Position numbers and translations under genes: made by a program. The notes beneath the pieces are model-generated. The model was not told where the DNA came from and did no database searches. It saw only the letters and a list, made by a program, of their open reading frames with translations. Of a stretch of DNA of 63,904 nt, positions 52,928 to 63,904 are shown one piece after another. This DNA comes from an uncultured Rickettsiales bacterium. Its GTDB lineage: Bacteria > Pseudomonadota > Alphaproteobacteria > Rickettsiales > JABDBP01. The stretch is from positions 1-63,904 of the forward strand of contig CAYVHI010000001.1 of the NCBI GenBank assembly GCA_964450945.1, written 5' to 3'. The stretch's first letter is position 1; each line of letters starts with the position of its first letter.

Positions 52928-54517
52928 ATGTTCGAATCACTAAGAGATTTTATTGACCATCTTGAGAAGGAAGGTGAGCTGAGGCGTGTGAAAACGCAGG
53001 TTTCGCCGGTTCTTGAGATGACCGAGATCGGCACCCGCCTGATAGCGGAAGCCGGCCCCGCTATGCTGTTTGAAAATGTTGTTATGAACGAGGACAGAAC
53101 GTCCGAGCGAGCCTTCAGCCAGCGAAGCGACGCCTCATTGAATTTGCAGGAGGCAAATTCAGGAGGCATACCGCAGGGTATTAAAAATAAATCCATCCCT
53201 ACCCTGATAAACCTCTTCGGCACGGTAAACCGCGTTGCAATGGGTATGGGAACCACGCCGGAAGGTCTAAGGGAGGTGGGCAAGACCCTTGCTTTCCTGC
53301 GTCAGCCGGAGCCCCCTGGTGGCTGGAAGGAAGCAGCCGGTATGCTGCCGCTCCTCAAGAAGGTTATGGCCATGAAGCCAAAAACCGTCTCAAAGGCGCC
53401 CTGCCAGGAAGTGGTTTTGACCGGAAATGAGATAGATTTAGGGATACTTCCGATTCAGACATGCTGGCCGAACGAGCCATCCCCACTTATAACCTGGCCA
53501 TTGGTGGTAACTGAGGGGCCAAATAGGAATAATCCAAATAAAGACCCTACAGATAACTATAATCTTGGCATCTACCGTATGCAGGTTTTATCTAGCAATC
53601 AAACACTTATGCGATGGCTGAAGCATCGGGGCGGCGCCCAGCATTATGGAAAATGGAAAAAGGAAAAATCCGAACCATTTCCAGTTGCAGCAGTAATAGG
53701 GGCAGACCCAGGTACTATTTTAGCAGCAGTAACGCCGGTGCCGGAAACCATGTCAGAATACCAGTTTGCCGGGTTTCTAAGGGGTAAAGGAGTGGAGCTG
53801 GTGGATTGCAAGACAATACCGCTTAAAGTGCCAGCGCAAGCGGAAATCGTTTTGGAAGGCCATGTTTCGTTCGATGACTATCGTGATGAGGGACCATATG
53901 GTGACCATACCGGCTATTATAACTCGGTAGAAAAGTTCCCGGTATTCACTCTTTCTGCCATCACCATGCGGAAAAATCCGATTTACCTTTCCACCTATAC
54001 CGGAAAGCCGCCGGATGAACCTTCCGTGCTAGGTGAGGCGCTTAATGAAGTATTCATCCCGCTCCTCCAGCAGCAGTTCCCCGAAATAGTGGATTTCTAC
54101 CTGCCACCGGAAGGTTGCTCATATAGGATTGCTGTAGTCTCTATTAAAAAGGCTTATCCCGGCCACGCCAAGCGCATAATGATGGGCATTTGGAGCCACC
54201 TTCGCCAGTTCATGTATACGAAATGGGTTGTTATTGTTGATGACGATATCAATATCCGTGACTGGAAGGAAGTTATGTGGGCAATCTCCACCCGCATGGA
54301 TTTCGGCCGCGATATGACTGTTATTGAGAATACTCCGATCGATTACCTTGATTTTGCCTCACCCGTCTCCGGGCTAGGCAGCAAGCTTGGGTTCGATGCC
54401 ACCAACAAAATTGGCGCTGAAACTGCCCGCGAATGGGGCAGAAAAATCGAGATGGAAGGAAAAGTAAAAGAAAAGATTGATAAAATCTGGGCAGAACTAA
54501 AACCTTCTAAAAACTAA
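52928..54517 (+). CDS. ubiD: UbiD-family decarboxylase with an in-frame insertion
   Basis: [63 protein letters not shown]. Confidence 0.97.
53104..53172 (+). repeat. Short repeat, family 2, in frame inside ubiD
   Basis: cgagcgagccttcagccagcgaagcgac plus hairpin gaatttgc-aggag-gcaaattc. Confidence 0.65.
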
Positions 54518-54569
54518 TTTAAAATGAAAAACCCTACAGAATCCTTTTAGGACGCTGTAGGGTTTTTCT

Positions 54570-54869
54570 TTAGACAACCCAAAGAGACTTTATTGACTCG
54601 TGTGGGTCATCGAGAAATTCCGCTTTACCAGGCTGGATGGTTTTCCAGTGGTGGAACTCTATTTGGCAAGGTTCAGGATTAGTTATCTGAACCTTACCAT
54701 GTCCTGTAATGTAGAAAATTTGCCCTGAAGAAACTTTCAGGGTTATTTCCTTTTCTACAGGAATTTTTATCCCGCCAAAAACCCAGGGGCATAAGAGACC
54801 TTCTATGTCACAGACAGTTAGGTCTTCATCTCCCAGATTCTTGATCAAGATATTTGGCATCTTCCTCAC
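54570..54869 (-). CDS. Cassette ORF, family 2
   Basis: gaaaggaggtgaggaagATG (likely start MPNILIKNLG at 54860); nested terminator at 54526..54568. Confidence 0.7.
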   Translation of the reverse strand: MRKMPNILIKNLGDEDLTVCDIEGLLCPWVFGGIKIPVEKEITLKVSSGQIFYITGHGKVQITNPEPCQIEFHHWKTIQPGKAEFLDDPHESIKSLWVV

Positions 54870-54932
54870 CTCCTTTCGGTGCCGTTAAATGCCTTAAGAA
54901 ATCCATAACAACGGGGTGGCCAATCACCTTGT

Positions 54933-55280
54933 TCATGATTCACCCTTCTTTCTGCGGTTAACAGTATCGCTTCGCCTCGAAATTGCGATGATGCGACACC
55001 GCCCCTTCCACACCTGGCCTTTCTTCAGCCACTTCTTTTCAGTAAAGAAGAGTTCGACTGAGGCCATGAAACCAAGATTCTCGACTTTTATGGGTATCTT
55101 GGCTTCTTTACACGAAACAATTACTGAGCAGGCACGGTCGAAAATGTAAAACTTTCTTGGTTCTACAATTTCCTGCCTCTGGTGCAGTAACTTCCCGCGT
55201 TTTATTACAAACCACCTAACCAGAAGTCTGTACTTCGAGCTTAGGTTTGTAATTTTGACGTTTAGGTTGCGCCTTTTCAT
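54933..55280 (-). CDS. Cassette ORF, family 2
   Basis: VKITNLS...LLVRW...KRG resembles 56506 (VLIKNVG...IHVEW..LKRKRG). Confidence 0.6.
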   Translation of the reverse strand: MKRRNLNVKITNLSSKYRLLVRWFVIKRGKLLHQRQEIVEPRKFYIFDRACSVIVSCKEAKIPIKVENLGFMASVELFFTEKKWLKKGQVWKGRCRIIAISRRSDTVNRRKKGES

Positions 55281-55320
55281 GAGGCTTTCTCCAAAAAAAG
55301 ACAAGGTTCTGAAAAAACCT

Positions 55321-55396
55321 CTTCTCTGTTCCAAGAGTGAAGGGGAGTGCCTTTTTTATACGGCCATTTCTGACCTAAGGCGAAACCCCTTCATCC
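55321..55396 (-). repeat. Motif C intergenic structured repeat, copy 1
   Basis: gaaggggtttcgccttaggtcagaaatggcc...aggcactccccttc; also at 55778..55845 and 57215..57290. Confidence 0.75.
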
Positions 55397-55401
55397 TTTT
55401 T

Positions 55402-55734
55402 TCAACCAGTCGGATTCTCTTTTGTCTGAGCGGTTGGATCCTTTAGGTGCAAGGATCCTTGCCCGTTCTCAACAACGAGACGGGCCCAGAGGGTTCCATC
55501 TGGGTGAAAGAGTTCAATCTTTCCATCCATGTGAATTTCAGTTGCTCCCGTTTTATGCGGGCGAATTTCAACAACTTGTTCCTCACAATCTGCTATGGTC
55601 ACCAATAGGACAGTAGCGCCTTTACAGTGGCCATTGTAAGCTACAACCCTGTGCGCAGTGTTGCCGCAGTGGCTACAGTGCGCACTATGGTTGTCAAACT
55701 CACCAGCCGTACCGTATTTATAACGGTACTCCAT
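55402..55734 (-). CDS. Cassette ORF, hypothetical (Cys/His-rich N-terminus)
   Basis: aaaaggagaaaaagttATG; HCSHC motif. Confidence 0.65.
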   Translation of the reverse strand: MEYRYKYGTAGEFDNHSAHCSHCGNTAHRVVAYNGHCKGATVLLVTIADCEEQVVEIRPHKTGATEIHMDGKIELFHPDGTLWARLVVENGQGSLHLKDPTAQTKENPTG

Positions 55735-55777
55735 AACTTTTCTCCTTTTGGGCGAAAGTTGTGGGATCAGAAAACCT

Positions 55778-55845
55778 CTTCTCTGTTCCGAAAGTGAAGG
55801 GGAGTGCCTTTTTATGCGGCCATTTCTGGCCTAAGGCAAACACCT
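55778..55845 (-). repeat. Motif C copy 2
   Basis: gccttaggccagaaatggccgcataaaaaggcactccccttcactttcggaacagagaag. Confidence 0.75.
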
Positions 55846-55857
55846 CCACCCCAAAAA

Positions 55858-56118
55858 TTATTTGTCCCTTGTTGACGGCCACTCCGCTAAGGGAGTGACA
55901 TCATCAACAAAGGCCCAAACTTTGACGTACACAACCTTCCGGTTATAGTATGTCTGGGTCCAGATTTCTTCTCCTTCCGGGGGAGAAACGCTGTAATACC
56001 AGCTTGGAATGGTTGCCCCTTCCAAGCCGACTTCAACATCAACCGGTTCCTTCCGGTTGATACCGTTGATCAAGACACAATTTTTTTCCTGATCAACGTA
56101 GGCCCGGATTTTTGCCAT
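55858..56118 (-). CDS. Cassette ORF, small beta-rich family 1
   Basis: gaaaggaggtgagaaagATGGC; PVDVEVG...VYVKVW...PLAEWP. Confidence 0.75.
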   Translation of the reverse strand: MAKIRAYVDQEKNCVLINGINRKEPVDVEVGLEGATIPSWYYSVSPPEGEEIWTQTYYNRKVVYVKVWAFVDDVTPLAEWPSTRDK

Positions 56119-56237
56119 CTTTCTCACCTCCTTTCTTTGGCGGTTAGATGACAAATGATCGAAGCTATCGGAAGCACGCAAGGAAACGATCCATGCATGA
56201 TTGTTTATGGTTTTTTATGTTTTTGGATTTCTATTTA

Positions 56238-56376
56238 GGAAGGCAAGGCGAACACCACGAAGGCCGTTTGTCTTGTCTGGAATGCCATGCCCACAGGTGG
56301 GTTTGGCACTTAATGAACCGCCATCTTTCCAAGAATGTTTTGCATTCCTTAACCTTAAAAAGAGGCAATTTAAGAA
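56238..56376 (-). ncRNA. Motif B copy 2
   Basis: aaattgc..ttaagga..gcggttca..acccacctgtggg; promoter box at 56409..56424. Confidence 0.65.
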
Positions 56377-56505
56377 CTTACATTATAGCAAATATGTAAA
56401 AGGTTAGTGTTACAGTTTTGTGAAATATGAAGGATATTTAAAATAAAAAACCCTCCTGGTCATCCCTTTGTCTTTTTAAGACTTAGGGTGCCGGAGGGTT
56501 CCTTT

Positions 56506-56856
56506 TTACTCTTCTTCCTCTTCGAATGGGCCGTTTTCTTTTTCCCACTCTTTTAAGGAAGTAAGTGTTAAATGTGGACAAATTGTTGTTTCCCCTGGCC
56601 TTAAAAGGTGGGGATACATACTGAATGTCCACTCCTCAACAAAAACAACCTCACCTTGGTTGGAGATTTTTGCGTTTCCACTGCCACTCTTAAAAGAGAA
56701 GCTGTGGGAAACACTTATCTCCACTGCATCCTCAACCAGTACTTTATCTTTTGGTTTGAGGTTGCAGTAACCGCCCCTTTTTCTTTTAAGGCAGCTCCAC
56801 TCAACATGGATGTTATTTCCACCCACGTTTTTTATGAGAACTTTGTTTTCTGGCAT
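56506..56856 (-). CDS. Cassette ORF, family 2
   Basis: gaaaggaggtaaaATG; nested terminator at 56452..56503. Confidence 0.7.
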   Translation of the reverse strand: MPENKVLIKNVGGNNIHVEWSCLKRKRGGYCNLKPKDKVLVEDAVEISVSHSFSFKSGSGNAKISNQGEVVFVEEWTFSMYPHLLRPGETTICPHLTLTSLKEWEKENGPFEEEEE

Positions 56857-56886
56857 TTTACCTCCTTTCAGGTTAGTGCCAAAAAA

Positions 56887-57123
56887 TCAAAATCTCTCCC
56901 AAACCGCTAACTCTTGGTAATGGGGAGAACCCATAACTTTCACCTCACAAATACGTGAGAGGAATCGCTTCCTCCACACATTTGGCTTTCTCATGTCCTC
57001 TTCATCGAGGACATAAGAAACTTCAGCTCCATCTTTTAACAGGATCTCAATCTGGACTGGCAGGTATGCTGCCAGCCCCGTAACGACTATATTTTTGCCG
57101 TTACGGGAGACTTTGATTTCCAT
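56887..57123 (-). CDS. Cassette ORF, small beta-rich family 1
   Basis: agggaggtaatATG; EIKV...V.TGL....PV, ICEVKVM...LAVW. Confidence 0.7.
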   Translation of the reverse strand: MEIKVSRNGKNIVVTGLAAYLPVQIEILLKDGAEVSYVLDEEDMRKPNVWRKRFLSRICEVKVMGSPHYQELAVWERF

Positions 57124-57214
57124 ATTACCTCCCTTAAGGTATTGTTGCAGCAACACCATAAAAAAAGAAAGAACATCACCCAGTAAAAACAACGGGGCGG
57201 CCGGATGGCCAGAA

Positions 57215-57290
57215 CTTCCCTGTTCCGAAGATGAAGGGGAGTGCCTTTTTATGATACCATTTCTGGCCTAAGGCGAAACCCCTTCATCCT
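57215..57290 (-). repeat. Motif C copy 3
   Basis: ggatgaaggggtttcgccttaggccagaaatgg...aggcactccccttcatcttcggaacagggaag. Confidence 0.75.
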
Positions 57291-57302
57291 TTTCCAAAAG
57301 TC

Positions 57303-57623
57303 TTAGCCAGTCAATTCCGGCGGCGGAATTGTTGGACTTTGAGGTGGGGGTGGCGGCGGAACATCGCTTTCCGACTTCCACTGAGCAAGAGGAGGAGGAT
57401 TCTCCTCCTCGCTGAACCCGTATCCCCAGACTGCGACGTAATTGATTGGTCGCAGCCGGGAAACACAGCCCCAGCTTTTCTCGCCGCGCTCGGGTACGCT
57501 ATGGTACCAATCGCAATGATTGGTTCCATAATACCCGATCTGGACATCTACGGGATCGATGTGATCCAGCCCCGTAATGATGACGCCGCGGTGAGTTTCT
57601 GCCACCTTGATCTCGACTGCCAT
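57303..57623 (-). CDS. Cassette ORF, small beta-rich family 1 with Pro-rich tail
   Basis: Same RBS context as 56118; PVDVQIG...INYVAVW...PLAQWK. Confidence 0.75.
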   Translation of the reverse strand: MAVEIKVAETHRGVIITGLDHIDPVDVQIGYYGTNHCDWYHSVPERGEKSWGCVSRLRPINYVAVWGYGFSEEENPPPLAQWKSESDVPPPPPPQSPTIPPPELTG

Positions 57624-57740
57624 CTTTCTCACCTCCTTTCTTTGGTGGTTAGATGACAATGGATAGAGGCTATCGGAAGCACGCATGGAAACGATCCATG
57701 CATGATGCTTGGTTTTTTGTTTTTGGATTTCTATGTGATG

Positions 57741-57875
57741 AAGCAGGCTGCGGCACTAAAGCCAGTTTATCCTGCTTAGAATATCATCCCCACAGGTGGG
57801 TCTGATACTTTTTGAACCGCCATCTTTCCAAGAATGTTTTACATTCCTTAACCTTAAAAAGAGGCAATTTAAGAA
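57741..57875 (-). ncRNA. Motif B copy 3
   Basis: Part of an ~310-bp duplication (57624..57935 vs 56119..56435); promoter box at 57908..57923. Confidence 0.65.
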
Positions 57876-58000
57876 TTTACATTATACCAAATAAGTAAAA
57901 GGCTAGTGTTACAGTTTTATGAAATATGAAGGGGTTTTTCTTTGGCCTTTAAAATGCGAAAACCCCCGTGCCTTTTAAGCTATTCGGGGGTTTTCTTCGG

Positions 58001-58210
58001 TTAGAACTGAAGGAAGATGAGCTGTTCTCCACGACAGACTGCTTCCTCCATGGAAGCGTAGATTGCGATCGTGTCGAGGAGCTTGGCCTTATAAGTCTCG
58101 TTCTTCTTCAGCTGGACGATGTTCCCGTTCACGAAGAGAACAATATCCTTCGCCGCTCCCACCTCGTAGTCCGAGATGGTGAAGTGAGGCGTCATCAGAA
58201 ACCCGAGCAT
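58001..58210 (-). CDS. Cassette ORF, hypothetical (69 aa)
   Basis: agaggatttaccATG; GC-rich codons; terminator gaaaaccccc..gggggttttc. Confidence 0.6.
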   Translation of the reverse strand: MLGFLMTPHFTISDYEVGAAKDIVLFVNGNIVQLKKNETYKAKLLDTIAIYASMEEAVCRGEQLIFLQF

Positions 58211-58329
58211 GGTAAATCCTCTACAGTTGGTAACAGTAAGCCCAACTGTTATTGGAAAGCCACTTGCTTGCGGAACAATTCCGCTGCATTAGTGGATAAG
58301 GCACGAACTTTGGTGTTGGGATTTATATT

Positions 58330-58472
58330 TGAAAAAGTAAGGCTACAGCTTTCGCCAGTTTATCTTACCTGAATATCATGCCCACAGGTGGGTTGATATT
58401 TAATGAACCGCTTTATATTCAAGAAATATCCGTGTGGATAATCCTTAAGCCTGAACATAAGCAATTTGAATG
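58330..58472 (-). ncRNA. Motif B copy 4
   Basis: Near-identical to 49257..49400; promoter box at 58505..58520; motif D at 58260..58302. Confidence 0.7.
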
Positions 58473-58533
58473 AACCAATTATAGCAAAAGAACAATACTT
58501 TTGTGTTACAGTTTTATGAAATATGTGGGGTTA

Positions 58534-59019
58534 CTATTCCTGTATAATCTCTATACAGTTAGATCCTGGGGCATCACAGTTTATATCATCTTGAACTGCC
58601 GGAGCAGAAGGCACAGCGGCCGGAGCGCTTGCTGTTGTATTGACCTCCGCAGCACTAGGGGCCGGAGCGGTATTTCTGGTGTTAACCACAGCCTGACCTT
58701 TGAATGTAGGTACATTTTGTTGGTTTGAAGAGCCGTTTTGCAGTAAAGATGGGTTACCGGCAACCCCTCTACCAAGCAATCCTTCTGCCTTGCTGTTAAC
58801 GTAGACAGCTTTTGTATTTTTTGATTGTGAGTTTAGCCTATTAAAGAATTCCGGGTCTTTATAACCTGTGATTACGCCGCCACTTGCATATGGGTTCTGA
58901 ACAGGAACATCAACACCTGCATCTGGTGTGGGCCCAGAAGGGATTGAAAGCTCCGCTCTGGCTCCGCCAGATATCAAGAAGCAGGTAATACCCAAAATAT
59001 AGCAAATTTTCTTAATCAT
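58534..59019 (-). CDS. Secreted hypothetical protein
   Basis: MIKKICYILGITCFLISGGARA signal peptide; low-complexity APA tract; C-terminal Cys pair. Confidence 0.7.
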   Translation of the reverse strand: MIKKICYILGITCFLISGGARAELSIPSGPTPDAGVDVPVQNPYASGGVITGYKDPEFFNRLNSQSKNTKAVYVNSKAEGLLGRGVAGNPSLLQNGSSNQQNVPTFKGQAVVNTRNTAPAPSAAEVNTTASAPAAVPSAPAVQDDINCDAPGSNCIEIIQE

Positions 59020-59257
59020 TTTTCCTCACTCTTATATCATTCTAACACATATTTATTAATGTAAGATTAATTTTTTGTTTCATTTTATTTCGCCCAACAT
59101 ATTGATATTGTTATATAATTCTCTTCGATAACTAGCGTTAACAATGGTTAAACTAGTTCAAATTTTAGCTATCTGATAAAAAATAGTATGGATTATGTAA
59201 TCAAAAATTCACACTTTCTGGGATATAAATCTTTATAATTAGCCCTGTTCTACTGTC

Positions 59258-59375
59258 TTTTCAGGAAGATTAGTTATGGTGCCAGAAATGGTACTGAAAA
59301 AATACTCAAAAGCACTTTAGTGCTTGAAGCCGGCCCCTTTGCCGTCTTTATGAGTTAACTAATCTTCCTAAAAAG
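59258..59375 (+). ncRNA. Structured 5' leader of the thiC-proximal cassette
   Basis: Perfect 14-bp stem aggaagattagtta / taactaatcttcct; inner gtgcca-gaaa-tggtac, actca/tgagt and aagcac/gtgctt stems. Confidence 0.6.
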
Positions 59376-59399
59376 CTAGTAGGATGGAGGATTCCAGCC

Positions 59400-59540
59400 A
59401 TGTTCGACCCGCTCGGTTTCGCCAAAAAGTCGTGGACGGAGATCGGCATCACGCTCGGCGCGGTTATCATCGGCGTGACGGTGGCCGTCTACATCGCGTT
59501 CCCGGTGATCAAGATGTTCATCGAAAACATGAAGCCGTAA
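59400..59540 (+). CDS. Cassette ORF, 46 aa single-TM peptide
   Basis: ggaggattccagccATG; MFDPLGFAKKSWTEIGITLGAVIIGVTVAVYIAFPVIKMFIENMKP; GC-rich codons; terminator cagacccc..ggggtctg. Not in the ORF track (under 60 aa). Confidence 0.65.
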   Translation: MFDPLGFAKKSWTEIGITLGAVIIGVTVAVYIAFPVIKMFIENMKP

Positions 59541-59684
59541 CGCCAAACCGGCGTTACACGGAGCAGACCCCCCGAGTGGGGTCTGTTTCATTTTAAACGC
59601 CTTGTAGTCGACATATTAATAAGAAGAAAAGAAACCTGTGGTTTACTAATTTATCTAATCTGCTAAAACAATTCCATTCCCTAA

Positions 59685-61622
<1,938 letters not shown>

Positions 61623-63771: not shown

Positions 63772-63904
63772 CGTGGGAGTGGTTGGGCGAAGCCCAGAGC
63801 GACCCGGAAAATTATAAAACTTCGTGGGAGTGGTTGGGCGAAGCCCAGAGCGACCCGGAAAATTATAAAACTTCGTGGGAGTGGTTGGGCGAAGCCCAGA
63901 GCGA
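63772..63904 (+). repeat. 51-bp tandem repeat (two full copies plus a partial third), truncated at the window end
   Basis: cgtgggagtggttgggcgaagcccagagcgacccggaaaattataaaactt at 63772, 63823 and 63874. Confidence 0.92.

What the first reader, a model, noticed from the sequence alone, without database searches (positions are those of the whole stretch)
54520..58525. Eight-gene minus-strand cassette cluster with a third structured repeat (motif C) between genes
Seen: three promoter+motif B units (58520, 57923, 56424) drive runs of 1, 3 and 4 ORFs. Motif C (gaagggg-..gcct-ta-ggcca-GAAA-tggcc-..aggc-actccccttc) sits immediately after the stops of 57303, 55858 and 55402. The gcca-gaaa-tgg hairpin also appears in the 59258 leader. 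Inference: an intercistronic processing, stabilising or protein-binding element, or an insertion scar.
Basis: partly seen in the sequence, partly recalled or inferred. Interest (0 to 1): 0.65.

Follow-up and report, generated by a model that had tools for sequence, protein, structure and literature searches.

The report
Private RNA hairpin punctuating hyper-folded operons
Three copies of an 85-base folded RNA signal sit just after stop codons inside two duplicated operons of tiny orphan genes in an uncultured alphaproteobacterium; it most likely divides the long messenger into parts of different stability, and the genes' own coding sequences turn out to be unusually strongly folded too.

Summary
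Three promoter and motif B units drive runs of 1, 3 and 4 small ORFs, and each run ends in a canonical terminator. Motif C occurs exactly three times, 5-13 nt after the stops at 57303, 55858 and 55402.

Motif C is a three-tier hairpin with a GAAA tetraloop, an A-rich 3' bulge and a conserved purine-rich tail. It folds better as minus-strand (sense) RNA. It is absent from Rfam, from the rest of this complete-looking 1.74 Mb genome, from 400 genomes of the same order and from a metagenome scan. It is therefore not a REP or MITE. It has no U-tract, so it is not a plain terminator. Integron and DGR readings fail because the genome has no IntI and no reverse transcriptase.

Motif C and the leaders stay about 85% identical, while the paralogous ORFs between them have drifted to 50% nucleotide and 35% protein identity.

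The best reading, which is inferred and not shown, is an intra-operon processing or 3'-protection hairpin.

Unexpected extra result: the coding regions of g3-g9 are chains of hairpins (z = -5.5 to -8.9 against synonymous-codon shuffles; genome background -0.14 ± 0.92), with a bias to the sense strand.

The parts
57206..57296 (-). Motif C copy 1. The hairpin is 57227-57289 and the tail GGAACAGGGAAG follows. It lies between g3 and g4 and starts 13 nt after the g3 stop.
   Evidence: MFE -38.0, z -3.0; CM 97.7 bits
55766..55857 (-). Motif C copy 2. The hairpin is 55791-55852 and the tail GGAACAGAGAAGAGGUUUU follows. It lies between g6 and g7 and starts 5 nt after the g6 stop.
   Evidence: MFE -38.1, z -3.1; 105.3 bits
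55311..55401 (-). Motif C copy 3. The hairpin is 55333-55396, followed by the tail. It lies between g7 and g8 and starts 5 nt after the g7 stop.
   Evidence: MFE -29.7, z -2.4; 107.5 bits
58478..58521 (-). Promoter 1: box TTTCATAAAACTGTAACAC, 19-nt spacer, then TATAAT preceded by TGC (extended -10, TGnTATAAT).
   Evidence: (D4)
57881..57924 (-). Promoter 2: the same box and spacing.
56382..56425 (-). Promoter 3: the same box and spacing.
58211..58477 (-). Leader 1, with motif B and a GCCTTATCCACT box plus hairpin.
   Evidence: (D8)
57624..57880 (-). Leader 2 with motif B. It is 84.5% identical to leader 3.
56119..56381 (-). Leader 3 with motif B.
58001..58210 (-). g2, 69 aa, an orphan. It is the only gene of operon 1.
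57303..57623 (-). g3, 106 aa, family 1 (predicted beta-sandwich) with a Pro-rich tail. The CDS is hyper-structured (z -7.2 against synonymous shuffles).
56887..57123 (-). g4, 78 aa, a distant family 1 member. CDS z = -6.6.
56506..56856 (-). g5, 116 aa, an orphan. CDS z = -7.3.
55858..56118 (-). g6, 86 aa, family 1. AlphaFold model with pLDDT 89.5, a 7-strand sandwich. CDS z = -7.8.
55402..55734 (-). g7, 110 aa, an orphan flanked on both sides by motif C. CDS z = -8.1.
54933..55280 (-). g8, 115 aa, an orphan. CDS z = -5.5.
CDS z = -8.9.
57958..57995 (-). Terminator of operon 1 (stem followed by UUUUCGCAUUUU).
   Evidence: MFE -20.7, z -4.7
56450..56499 (-). Terminator of operon 2 (stem followed by UUUUUUAUUUU).
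   Evidence: MFE -26.8, z -5.9
54526..54568 (-). Terminator of operon 3. It is bidirectional and also ends ubiD.
   Evidence: MFE -28.2, z -8.6
59278..59293 (+). GUGCCA-GAAA-UGGUAC hairpin inside the rod-like leader (59256-59390) of the plus-strand mini-gene 59400-59540. It is a similar GAAA-capped stem but is not a motif C copy.

Best explanation
Motif C is a cis-acting element of the sense (minus-strand) mRNA. It is a roughly 63-nt three-tier hairpin. The outer stem has 8-12 bp. The middle stem is GCCUU/AAGGC. The apical stem is GGCCA/UGGCC capped by a GAAA tetraloop, with an exposed A-rich 3' bulge (YAUAAAA). A conserved purine-rich tail (GGAACAGAGAAGAGGUUUU) follows.

The element sits inside polycistronic transcripts, 5-13 nt after the stop of the first cistron of operons 2 and 3, and also after the second cistron of operon 3.

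The most likely mechanism is operon punctuation after transcription. After an endonucleolytic cut, in the tail, in the bulge or further downstream, the hairpin would remain as a 3' cap. That cap would block 3'-5' exonucleases, so the promoter-proximal cistrons would outlast and out-express the distal ones. Two consecutive copies in operon 3 would give a graded step-down.

Shown: existence, copy number, position, strand bias, privacy to this genome, lack of terminator features, and conservation relative to the flanking ORFs. Inferred: cleavage, protection and the effect on expression.
For: 1. There are three copies only, all intercistronic and all in mRNA sense.
2. The sense strand folds at -29.7, -38.1 and -38.0 kcal/mol, against -24.6, -28.4 and -31.2 for the complement. 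Several stem substitutions are kept as G-U pairs that work only in the sense RNA, and 95.7% of stem cells are paired.
3. No U-tract follows the stem (the next 8 nt are CGGAACAG), whereas the three operon ends carry classical terminators with U4-6 tails.
4. Motif C copies are 84-85% identical and the leaders 84.5%. The paralogous CDSs between them (g3 and g6) are 49.8% identical in nucleotides and 35% in protein. The module therefore evolves far more slowly than its neighbours.
5. The downstream cistrons have their own Shine-Dalgarno sequences and no promoter box, so they are read from the same transcript.
6. The A-rich bulge of motif C is among the most accessible 8-mers predicted in the whole 4-kb transcript region (P unpaired 0.73, 0.73 and 0.45).
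7. RNase III and RNase E/G genes are present in the genome.
8. There is precedent. Protective 3' hairpins within operons, including consecutive ones that give graded decay (menBCE), are described in PMC5927463. Irregular helices with internal loops serve as single-cut RNase III signals in the T7 polycistronic precursor, as described in PMC3867540.
9. The sister operon at 49.2-50.5 kb has the same promoter and motif B. It also carries a U-tract-less hairpin a few nt after each stop.
Against: With only three paralogous copies, covariation is not significant: 332 of 500 shuffles reach the observed score.

Motif C is not the strongest structure in its transcripts. Many 70-nt windows inside g3, g4, g6 and g7 fold better, so exonuclease blocks would exist throughout. 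A dedicated protective hairpin is therefore less obviously needed.

Two junctions, g4/g5 and g8/g9, lack motif C.

Gene conversion between tandem duplicates could keep the copies similar without any function.
Confidence: 0.4

Rival explanations
1. Motif C is a docking platform for a trans-acting factor, either a protein or another RNA. The stable scaffold would display a GAAA tetraloop and an A-rich bulge. The factor would control translation of the next cistron, or the localisation or packaging of the RNA, rather than its decay.
For: The sequence is conserved, not only the pairing: 19 nt (AAAAAGGCACUCCCCUUCA) and the loop region are identical in all copies. Accessible loop and bulge residues sit on a rigid stem. 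A similar GAAA-capped stem occurs in an unrelated plus-strand leader. A 'GCCUUA + hairpin' box recurs upstream of genes in the sister operon and in leader 1.
Against: No candidate binding protein was identified; all neighbouring proteins are orphans without RNA-binding domains. No canonical 11-nt tetraloop receptor is present in the window's cluster. The distance to the next start codon varies between 53 and 104 nt, so direct occlusion of the ribosome-binding site is unlikely.
Confidence: 0.2
2. Motif C has no function of its own. It is one more hairpin in transcripts that are structured from end to end. It looks conserved only because the operons are tandem duplicates whose non-coding parts are homogenised by gene conversion.
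For: The whole CDS of g3-g9 is a chain of hairpins. The units lie 1.5 kb apart in tandem. Covariation support is not significant.
Against: The third copy, after g7, lies in a non-duplicated context between unrelated ORFs. The three copies are about equidistant at 84-85%, not patchily identical as recent conversion would leave them. CDS hairpins turn over between the paralogues (0 shared base pairs between g3 and g6), whereas motif C keeps the same pairs.
Confidence: 0.18
3. Motif C is a DNA-level element. It could be a recombination junction or cassette boundary at which ORFs are swapped, or the footprint of a small mobile hairpin repeat (an 'insertion scar').
For: g7 is bracketed by two copies, as a cassette would be. 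The pattern is mosaic, with conserved non-coding modules around divergent or unrelated ORFs. The outer stem resembles terminal inverted repeats.
Against: The genome has only two tyrosine recombinases, of Xer size, no integron integrase and no reverse transcriptase. There are no R''/R' attC core sites and no target-site duplications (sequence). The module is asymmetric: a hairpin plus a one-sided tail. There are 3 copies in 1.74 Mb and none in 400 relatives or in the metagenome scan. G-U pairs make the sense RNA fold 5-10 kcal/mol better than the other strand. The Logan contigs of two runs are identical to the window.
Confidence: 0.12
4. Motif C is a leaky transcription terminator or attenuator. 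It would lower transcription of the distal cistrons (transcriptional polarity).
For: It is a stable hairpin directly after a stop codon. Copies 2 and 3 have a short U-run about 20 nt downstream (GAGGUUUUCU and GAGGUUUUUUC).
Against: No U-tract abuts the stem. The alternative fold that would pair the 3' arm with the purine tail ahead of the U-run is not predicted (z -0.8, +0.7 and -0.6). The same operons use textbook terminators at their ends. The consensus terminator scan did not flag motif C on either strand.
Confidence: 0.1

Closest known systems
Intra-operon protective ('decay terminator') hairpins: the malE-malF REP, the puf intercistronic stem-loop of Rhodobacter capsulatus, and the menBCE hairpins (Dar & Sorek 2018, PMC5927463)
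   Same: It is a stable stem-loop without a terminator U-tract. It lies just downstream of a promoter-proximal cistron inside a polycistronic mRNA. Consecutive copies occur in one operon. The host is an alphaproteobacterium, as for puf.
   Different: Function is untested here. The module is a sequence-conserved three-tier hairpin with a tail, private to one genome and restricted to two duplicated orphan-gene operons. The flanking coding regions are themselves more structured than the element.
RNase III processing signals of the phage T7 early polycistronic precursor (review PMC3867540)
   Same: It is an irregular helix of about 23 bp interrupted by internal loops, one of them strongly asymmetric. 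It lies between cistrons and is repeated along a polycistronic RNA. Such loops direct single-strand cuts that leave a 3' hairpin on the upstream product.
   Different: The apical helix is only 5 bp. The proximal and distal box rules were not testable, cleavage was not tested, and the element is chromosomal rather than from a phage.
Dispersed palindromic repeats (REP/BIME, ERIC, Correia, Rickettsia palindromic elements; from general knowledge)
   Same: It is a repeated imperfect palindrome in intergenic spacers next to stop codons, within an alphaproteobacterium with a small genome.
   Different: There are only 3 copies, all within 2 kb and all in one orientation. None is found elsewhere in the genome or in relatives. 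The tail is asymmetric and there are no target-site duplications.
Box-plus-hairpin punctuation of the sister operon at 49.2-50.5 kb of the same window
   Same: The promoter box and the motif B leader are the same. A U-tract-less hairpin lies a few nt after each stop. Both share a 'GCCUUA' followed by a stem-loop and a 'CUCC(G/C)CCUUC' 3' arm. The CDSs are also hyper-structured (z -5.1, -4.7 and -1.9).
   Different: The sequences differ: the motif C covariance model does not hit the sister operon. There the two hairpins are side by side rather than nested, and the element is present at every junction.

Membership tests
Intrinsic (Rho-independent) terminator | A G+C-rich stem immediately followed by a U-tract | tested here: not met
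   The 8 nt after the stem read CGGAACAG/UGGAACAG in all copies, at most one U. The scan flagged no site at motif C. The operon-end terminators have U4-6 tails.
Intrinsic (Rho-independent) terminator | Causes transcript release | not testable with these tools
   This needs in vitro transcription or Term-seq.
REP/MITE-type dispersed palindromic repeats | Many copies scattered over the genome, independent of gene context | tested here: not met
   Pattern and covariance-model scans of the whole genome (estimated 100% complete) find 3 copies only. None is found in 400 genomes of the order. The 19 metagenome 18-mer hits are not motif C.
REP/MITE-type dispersed palindromic repeats | Terminal inverted repeats flanked by target-site duplications | tested here: not met
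   The outer stem could pass as terminal inverted repeats. However, the flanks show no duplication, and a conserved 20-nt tail lies on one side only.
Integron attC / gene cassettes | An integron integrase (IntI) in the genome | tested here: not met
   PF00589 finds two ORFs of 310 and 302 aa, of Xer size, neither near the cluster.
Integron attC / gene cassettes | R''/L''-L'/R' core sites (RYYYAAC ... GTTRRRY), with one site after every promoterless cassette | tested here: not met
   No GTTRRRY or RYYYAAC cores lie at the ends of the module (sequence). Only 3 of 5 internal junctions carry the motif.
Intra-operon 3'-protective / processing hairpins | A stable stem-loop inside a polycistronic transcript, downstream of the stabilised cistron and in mRNA sense | tested here: met
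   The position is 5-13 nt after the stops. The sense fold is -30 to -38 kcal/mol with z -2.4 to -3.1. There is no internal promoter box or terminator.
Intra-operon 3'-protective / processing hairpins | 3' ends, or a half-life step, at the hairpin | not testable with these tools
   No RNA data were reachable.
Intra-operon 3'-protective / processing hairpins | The structure is conserved through compensatory change | tested here: inconclusive
   There is 1 compensatory pair and 6 one-sided G-U-preserving changes, with 3 broken cells. This is not better than shuffles with 3 sequences.
T7-type RNase III processing signal | An irregular helix of about 20 bp or more with an internal loop, and RNase III present in the host | tested here: met
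   There are 23 predicted pairs in three coaxial segments with an asymmetric loop. An RNase III gene is found.
T7-type RNase III processing signal | Site-specific cleavage by RNase III | not testable with these tools
   This needs an in vitro cleavage assay or mapping in an rnc mutant.
Any Rfam family | Match at the gathering score | tested here: not met
   There are no hits at gathering thresholds in the window. In 54000-60000 only chance-level hits appear at E <= 5.

The most novel reading that the evidence does not exclude
The two motif-B operons (54.5-58 kb and 49.2-50.5 kb) are 'dual-coded' messages. The whole sense RNA, coding regions included, is selected to be a near-continuous chain of hairpins. 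In g6 the hairpin loops fall on the beta-turns of the encoded FN3-like mini-protein. Motif C is the one sequence-specific punctuation mark in this chain. Such RNAs could be long-lived, translationally locked, RNase- and Rho-resistant stored messages, or could have an RNA-level function of their own. The motif C sites would then be where they are cut or unlocked.
Probability: 0.25. Interest if true: 0.8.

Novelty: new variant of a known kind. Interest (0 to 1): 0.5.

Why it matters
Hairpins inside operons that set relative mRNA stability are known, so motif C alone would be a lineage-private new example. Its context is what makes it unusual.

First, motif C is a sequence-conserved RNA module that stays fixed while the small orphan genes around it diverge or are replaced. 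Second, the genes themselves have synonymous sites tuned for extreme sense-strand RNA folding, 6-9 standard deviations beyond synonymous-codon shuffles of the same genes. Folding of this strength across whole coding regions is, to my knowledge, familiar from RNA viruses rather than from bacterial operons.

If this holds, the locus offers a compact natural system for studying three questions:
- how a protein fold and RNA structure can be encoded in the same sequence;
- how fully structured messengers are translated and degraded;
- how new genes are domesticated in reduced alphaproteobacterial genomes.

Tried and rejected
- **Rfam.** Gathering and E-value modes found nothing relevant.
- **A mini-ORF inside motif C.** MKGFRLR.. 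is open in copies 1 and 3. It is lost in copy 2 through ATG>GTG and a 1-nt deletion. There is no usable Shine-Dalgarno spacing. Rejected from the sequence.
- **A conditional terminator.** This would pair the 3' arm with the purine tail ahead of the U-run. Folding does not predict it.
- **GAAA tetraloop with an 11-nt receptor.** No receptor lies in the cluster.
- **Integron.** The genome has no IntI.
- **DGR or retron diversification.** The genome has no reverse transcriptase.
- **Homologues of g7 among 5.8 billion proteins.** Only g7 itself was found. The two Logan contigs that carry it are 100% identical to the window, so they give no strain variation.
- **Exhaustive profile search with family 1.** It returned only the three own proteins, plus short strand-like matches in a 4278-aa repeat protein.
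- **Pfam, PHROGs and NCBIfam on all nine proteins.** Nothing above threshold.
- **Structure of g7.** Low confidence, pLDDT 43.5.
- **Synteny test for an insertion.** ubiD and thiC are not neighbours in 80 alphaproteobacterial loci or in 4 genomes of the order, so the test is uninformative.
- **The weak covariance-model hit in G131.** It is an ordinary terminator-like hairpin.
- **Base-pair conservation of CDS hairpins between g3 and g6.** No pairs are shared. Structuredness is conserved, not the individual pairs.

Full report
**Setting**

The window is the first 63.9 kb of contig C1 of a 1.74 Mb, 70-contig genome with 41% G+C. Its completeness is estimated at 100%.

The UbiD-like protein next to the cluster is about 73% identical to those of Reyranella and Rhodospirillales and other alphaproteobacterial MAGs. 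The host is therefore an uncultured alphaproteobacterium with a small genome.

The cluster lies between ubiD (52928-54517, +) and thiC (59694-61622, +).

**Check of the observation**

Reading the minus strand, together with the ORF list and the repeat finder, confirms the described layout.

Three promoters share the box TTTCATAAAACTGTAACAC, a fixed 19-nt spacer and a TGnTATAAT extended -10 element. Each is followed by a leader of about 260 nt that contains motif B.
- Operon 1 holds g2.
- Operon 2 holds g3, g4 and g5.
- Operon 3 holds g6, g7, g8 and g9.

Each operon ends in a textbook terminator with a U-rich tail.

Motif C occurs at 57206-57296, 55766-55857 and 55311-55401. Its hairpin starts 13, 5 and 5 nt after the stops of g3, g6 and g7. 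The core gives 3 matches in the window, against none in 100 shuffles.

One detail of the finding needs correction. The GAAA-capped stem near 59258 lies on the plus strand (59278-59293). It sits inside the rod-like leader (z = -5.8) of a plus-strand 46-codon mini-gene with GC3 of 0.89 (59400-59540).

**Anatomy of motif C**

All three copies fold into the same three-tier hairpin as sense RNA:
- an outer stem of 8-12 bp (GAUGAAGGGG/CCCCUUCAUC);
- a small internal loop;
- a middle stem GCCUU/AAGGC;
- an asymmetric loop whose 3' side is YAUAAAA;
- an apical stem GGCCA/UGGCC closed by a GAAA tetraloop.

A conserved single-sided tail, GGAACAGAGAAGAGGUUUU, follows.

The sense strand folds at -29.7, -38.1 and -38.0 kcal/mol (z -2.4 to -3.1). 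The complement folds at -24.6, -28.4 and -31.2.

Among the variable stem positions, six changes keep pairing through G-U, one pair is compensated (A-U to G-C) and three cells are broken. With only three sequences this is not better than shuffles. The case for RNA structure therefore rests on thermodynamics, strand asymmetry and position, not on covariation.

**What motif C is not**

*Not a known RNA family.* Rfam gives no match.

*Not a dispersed repeat.* Pattern searches and a covariance model find exactly three copies in the genome. They find none in 60 and then 400 genomes of the same order; the single weak hit is a terminator-like hairpin. None of the 19 metagenome contigs that share its most conserved 18-mer carries it.

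*Not a plain terminator.* No U-tract follows the stem (the next 8 nt read CGGAACAG). The consensus scan does not flag it. A hypothetical alternative fold that would create a terminator is not predicted.

*Not an attC site and not part of a DGR.* The genome has only two Xer-sized tyrosine recombinases and no reverse transcriptase. The core-site motifs are absent.

*Not a coding sequence.* A 12-codon ORF inside the motif is not conserved in copy 2.

**Evidence that motif C matters**

Operons 2 and 3 are tandem duplicates. Their promoter-plus-leader regions are 84.5% identical and their motif C copies 85%. The paralogous genes in between, g3 and g6, are only 49.8% identical in DNA and 35% in protein.

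The third copy lies between unrelated ORFs (g7 and g8) and is equally similar (84-85%).

The borders of similarity coincide with the ORF borders. Either the non-coding modules are under much stronger constraint than the proteins, or the ORFs are evolving much faster than neutral. In both cases motif C behaves as a conserved module.

**An unexpected property of the operons**

Sliding-window folding showed that motif C is not the most stable local structure in its transcripts.

The coding regions of g3, g4, g6 and g7 fold with z = -8.1, -8.3, -8.1 and -6.7 against dinucleotide shuffles. Against shuffles that permute only synonymous codons, keeping the protein and the codon composition, g3-g9 give z = -5.5 to -8.9 (repeated). 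Forty random 300-nt coding segments of the same genome give -0.14 ± 0.92, with a minimum of -2.1.

The excess folding is larger in the sense strand than in the antisense strand in six of seven genes. Uninterrupted stems of 10 bp or more, with G-U allowed, occur at these densities:

| Sequence | Stems per kb |
|---|---|
| Cluster, sense strand | 3.9 |
| Cluster, antisense strand | 1.6 |
| Genome-wide | 0.76 |

The hairpins are not conserved pair by pair between g3 and g6. What is maintained is structuredness.

The genes of the sister operon at 49.2-50.5 kb, which has the same promoter and motif B, share the property (z -5.1, -4.7, -1.9). The GC3-rich monocistronic cassettes elsewhere on the contig show it less (-0.2 to -3.8).

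The ORFs still look like real genes:
- every one has a strong Shine-Dalgarno sequence;
- g3, g4 and g6 form a protein family;
- g6 gives a confident AlphaFold model from only three sequences (pLDDT 89.5, pTM 0.81), a seven-strand sandwich with weak FN3 and DUF3244 matches.

The six RNA hairpin loops of g6 fall on the six predicted beta-turns. The mean offset is 1.6 residues and the circular-shift P is 0.03. This is suggestive only.

**Mechanism**

Within such an end-to-end structured polycistronic RNA, motif C is the one sequence-specific non-coding hairpin that recurs after stop codons.

Its A-rich bulge is among the most accessible 8-mers predicted in the 4-kb region. RNase III and RNase E/G are both encoded in the genome.

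The closest described systems are:
- the protective 3' hairpins that create differential decay within operons, including consecutive hairpins that produce graded abundance (PMC5927463);
- the irregular RNase III signals that punctuate the T7 polycistronic precursor (PMC3867540).

I therefore favour an intra-operon processing and 3'-protection role, which would raise expression of the promoter-proximal cistron or cistrons relative to the distal ones. My confidence is about 0.4.

The rivals are:
- a platform for a trans-acting factor (0.2);
- no specific function beyond general structuredness, with similarity kept by gene conversion (0.18);
- a DNA-level cassette junction or mobile-element footprint (0.12);
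- a leaky terminator (0.1).

**Comparison and novelty**

As a kind, motif C belongs with intercistronic stabiliser and processing stem-loops. For membership, the positional and structural features were tested and met. The functional features could not be tested.

Motif C differs from known examples in four ways:
- it is private to one genome;
- it is sequence-conserved across diverging or unrelated orphan genes;
- it is nested (a 'GCCUUA + hairpin' box, shared with the sister operon and with leader 1, lies inside an outer stem);
- it is embedded in operons whose coding regions are hyper-structured.

I rate it a new variant of a known kind. Interest is 0.5, and most of that comes from the dual-coded, hyper-folded operons and not from the hairpin alone.

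Earlier notes of this scan on neighbouring clusters were used only as leads. They agree that this genome carries private arrays of orphan mini-genes with shared promoters and folded leaders.

Noticed in passing
window 54570-57623 (-), CDSs of g3-g9: The coding regions are chains of near-perfect hairpins. z = -5.5 to -8.9 against synonymous-codon shuffles, compared with a genome background of -0.14 ± 0.92. The effect is stronger in the sense strand. Stems of 10 bp or more occur at 3.9 per kb, against 0.76 per kb genome-wide.
   Followed up: yes
window 55858-56118 (-), g6: The six mRNA hairpin loops coincide with the six inter-strand turns of the AlphaFold beta-sandwich model. The mean offset is 1.6 residues and the circular-shift P is 0.03. 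Stem arms often pair codon to codon, for example ATC AAC CGG / CCG GTT GAT.
   Followed up: partly
window 59256-59540 (+): A plus-strand 46-codon membrane-like mini-gene (MFDPLGFAKKSWTEIGITLGAVIIGVTVAVYIAFPVIKMFIENMKP, GC3 0.89) lies behind a 135-nt rod-like leader. The leader is closed by GGAAGAUUAGUUA/UAACUAAUCUUCC (MFE -53.3, z -5.8) and holds a GAAA-capped stem like that of motif C. Its CDS is not hyper-structured (z +0.7).
   Followed up: partly
window 18484, 19088, 49207 (+); 56425, 57924, 58521, 63153 (-); C1:64519-68161 (-); C7:45038 (+): Thirteen promoters of one private class were found, 12 of them on contig C1. Each has a TTTMAYAAAWNYKTAACAY box, a 19-20 nt spacer and TGnTATAAT. Several boxes fit TTAA-N7-TTAAC, the CtrA-box pattern (from general knowledge). 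All precede small orphan genes.
   Followed up: partly
window 49426, 49763, 50202 (+); 58291 (-); inner part of motif C: A 'GCCTTA(TCCACT) + hairpin' box precedes each gene of the 49.2-kb operon and also precedes g2. The inner tier of motif C starts with the same GCCUUA followed by a hairpin, and the 3' arms resemble each other (CUCC(G/C)CCUUC). The elements may share an origin.
   Followed up: partly
window 57948, 56440, 54522 (-); 50534, 19056 (+): The cassette terminators share a conserved tail, GGGTTTT..(C)ATTTTAAA, beyond the stem.
   Followed up: no
window 63772-63904 and C1 up to about 64140: A 51-nt tandem repeat (CGTGGGAGTGGTTGGGCGAAGCCCAGAGCGACCCGGAAAATTATAAAACTT) runs into an assembly gap of Ns. 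A single related copy lies at about C1:68210-68260.
   Followed up: no
P0005 (public protein, 4278 aa): The family 1 profile (g3, g4, g6) matches 16 repeats of a giant low-complexity surface-type protein, through a strand motif of the type 'ITVTGL..G..VD..I'. Apart from the three proteins of this window, no other hit appeared among 1.84 billion representatives.
   Followed up: partly
window 52928-53257 (+), start of ubiD: The first 330 nt of ubiD fold better than synonymous shuffles (z -3.3), outside the background range.
   Followed up: no
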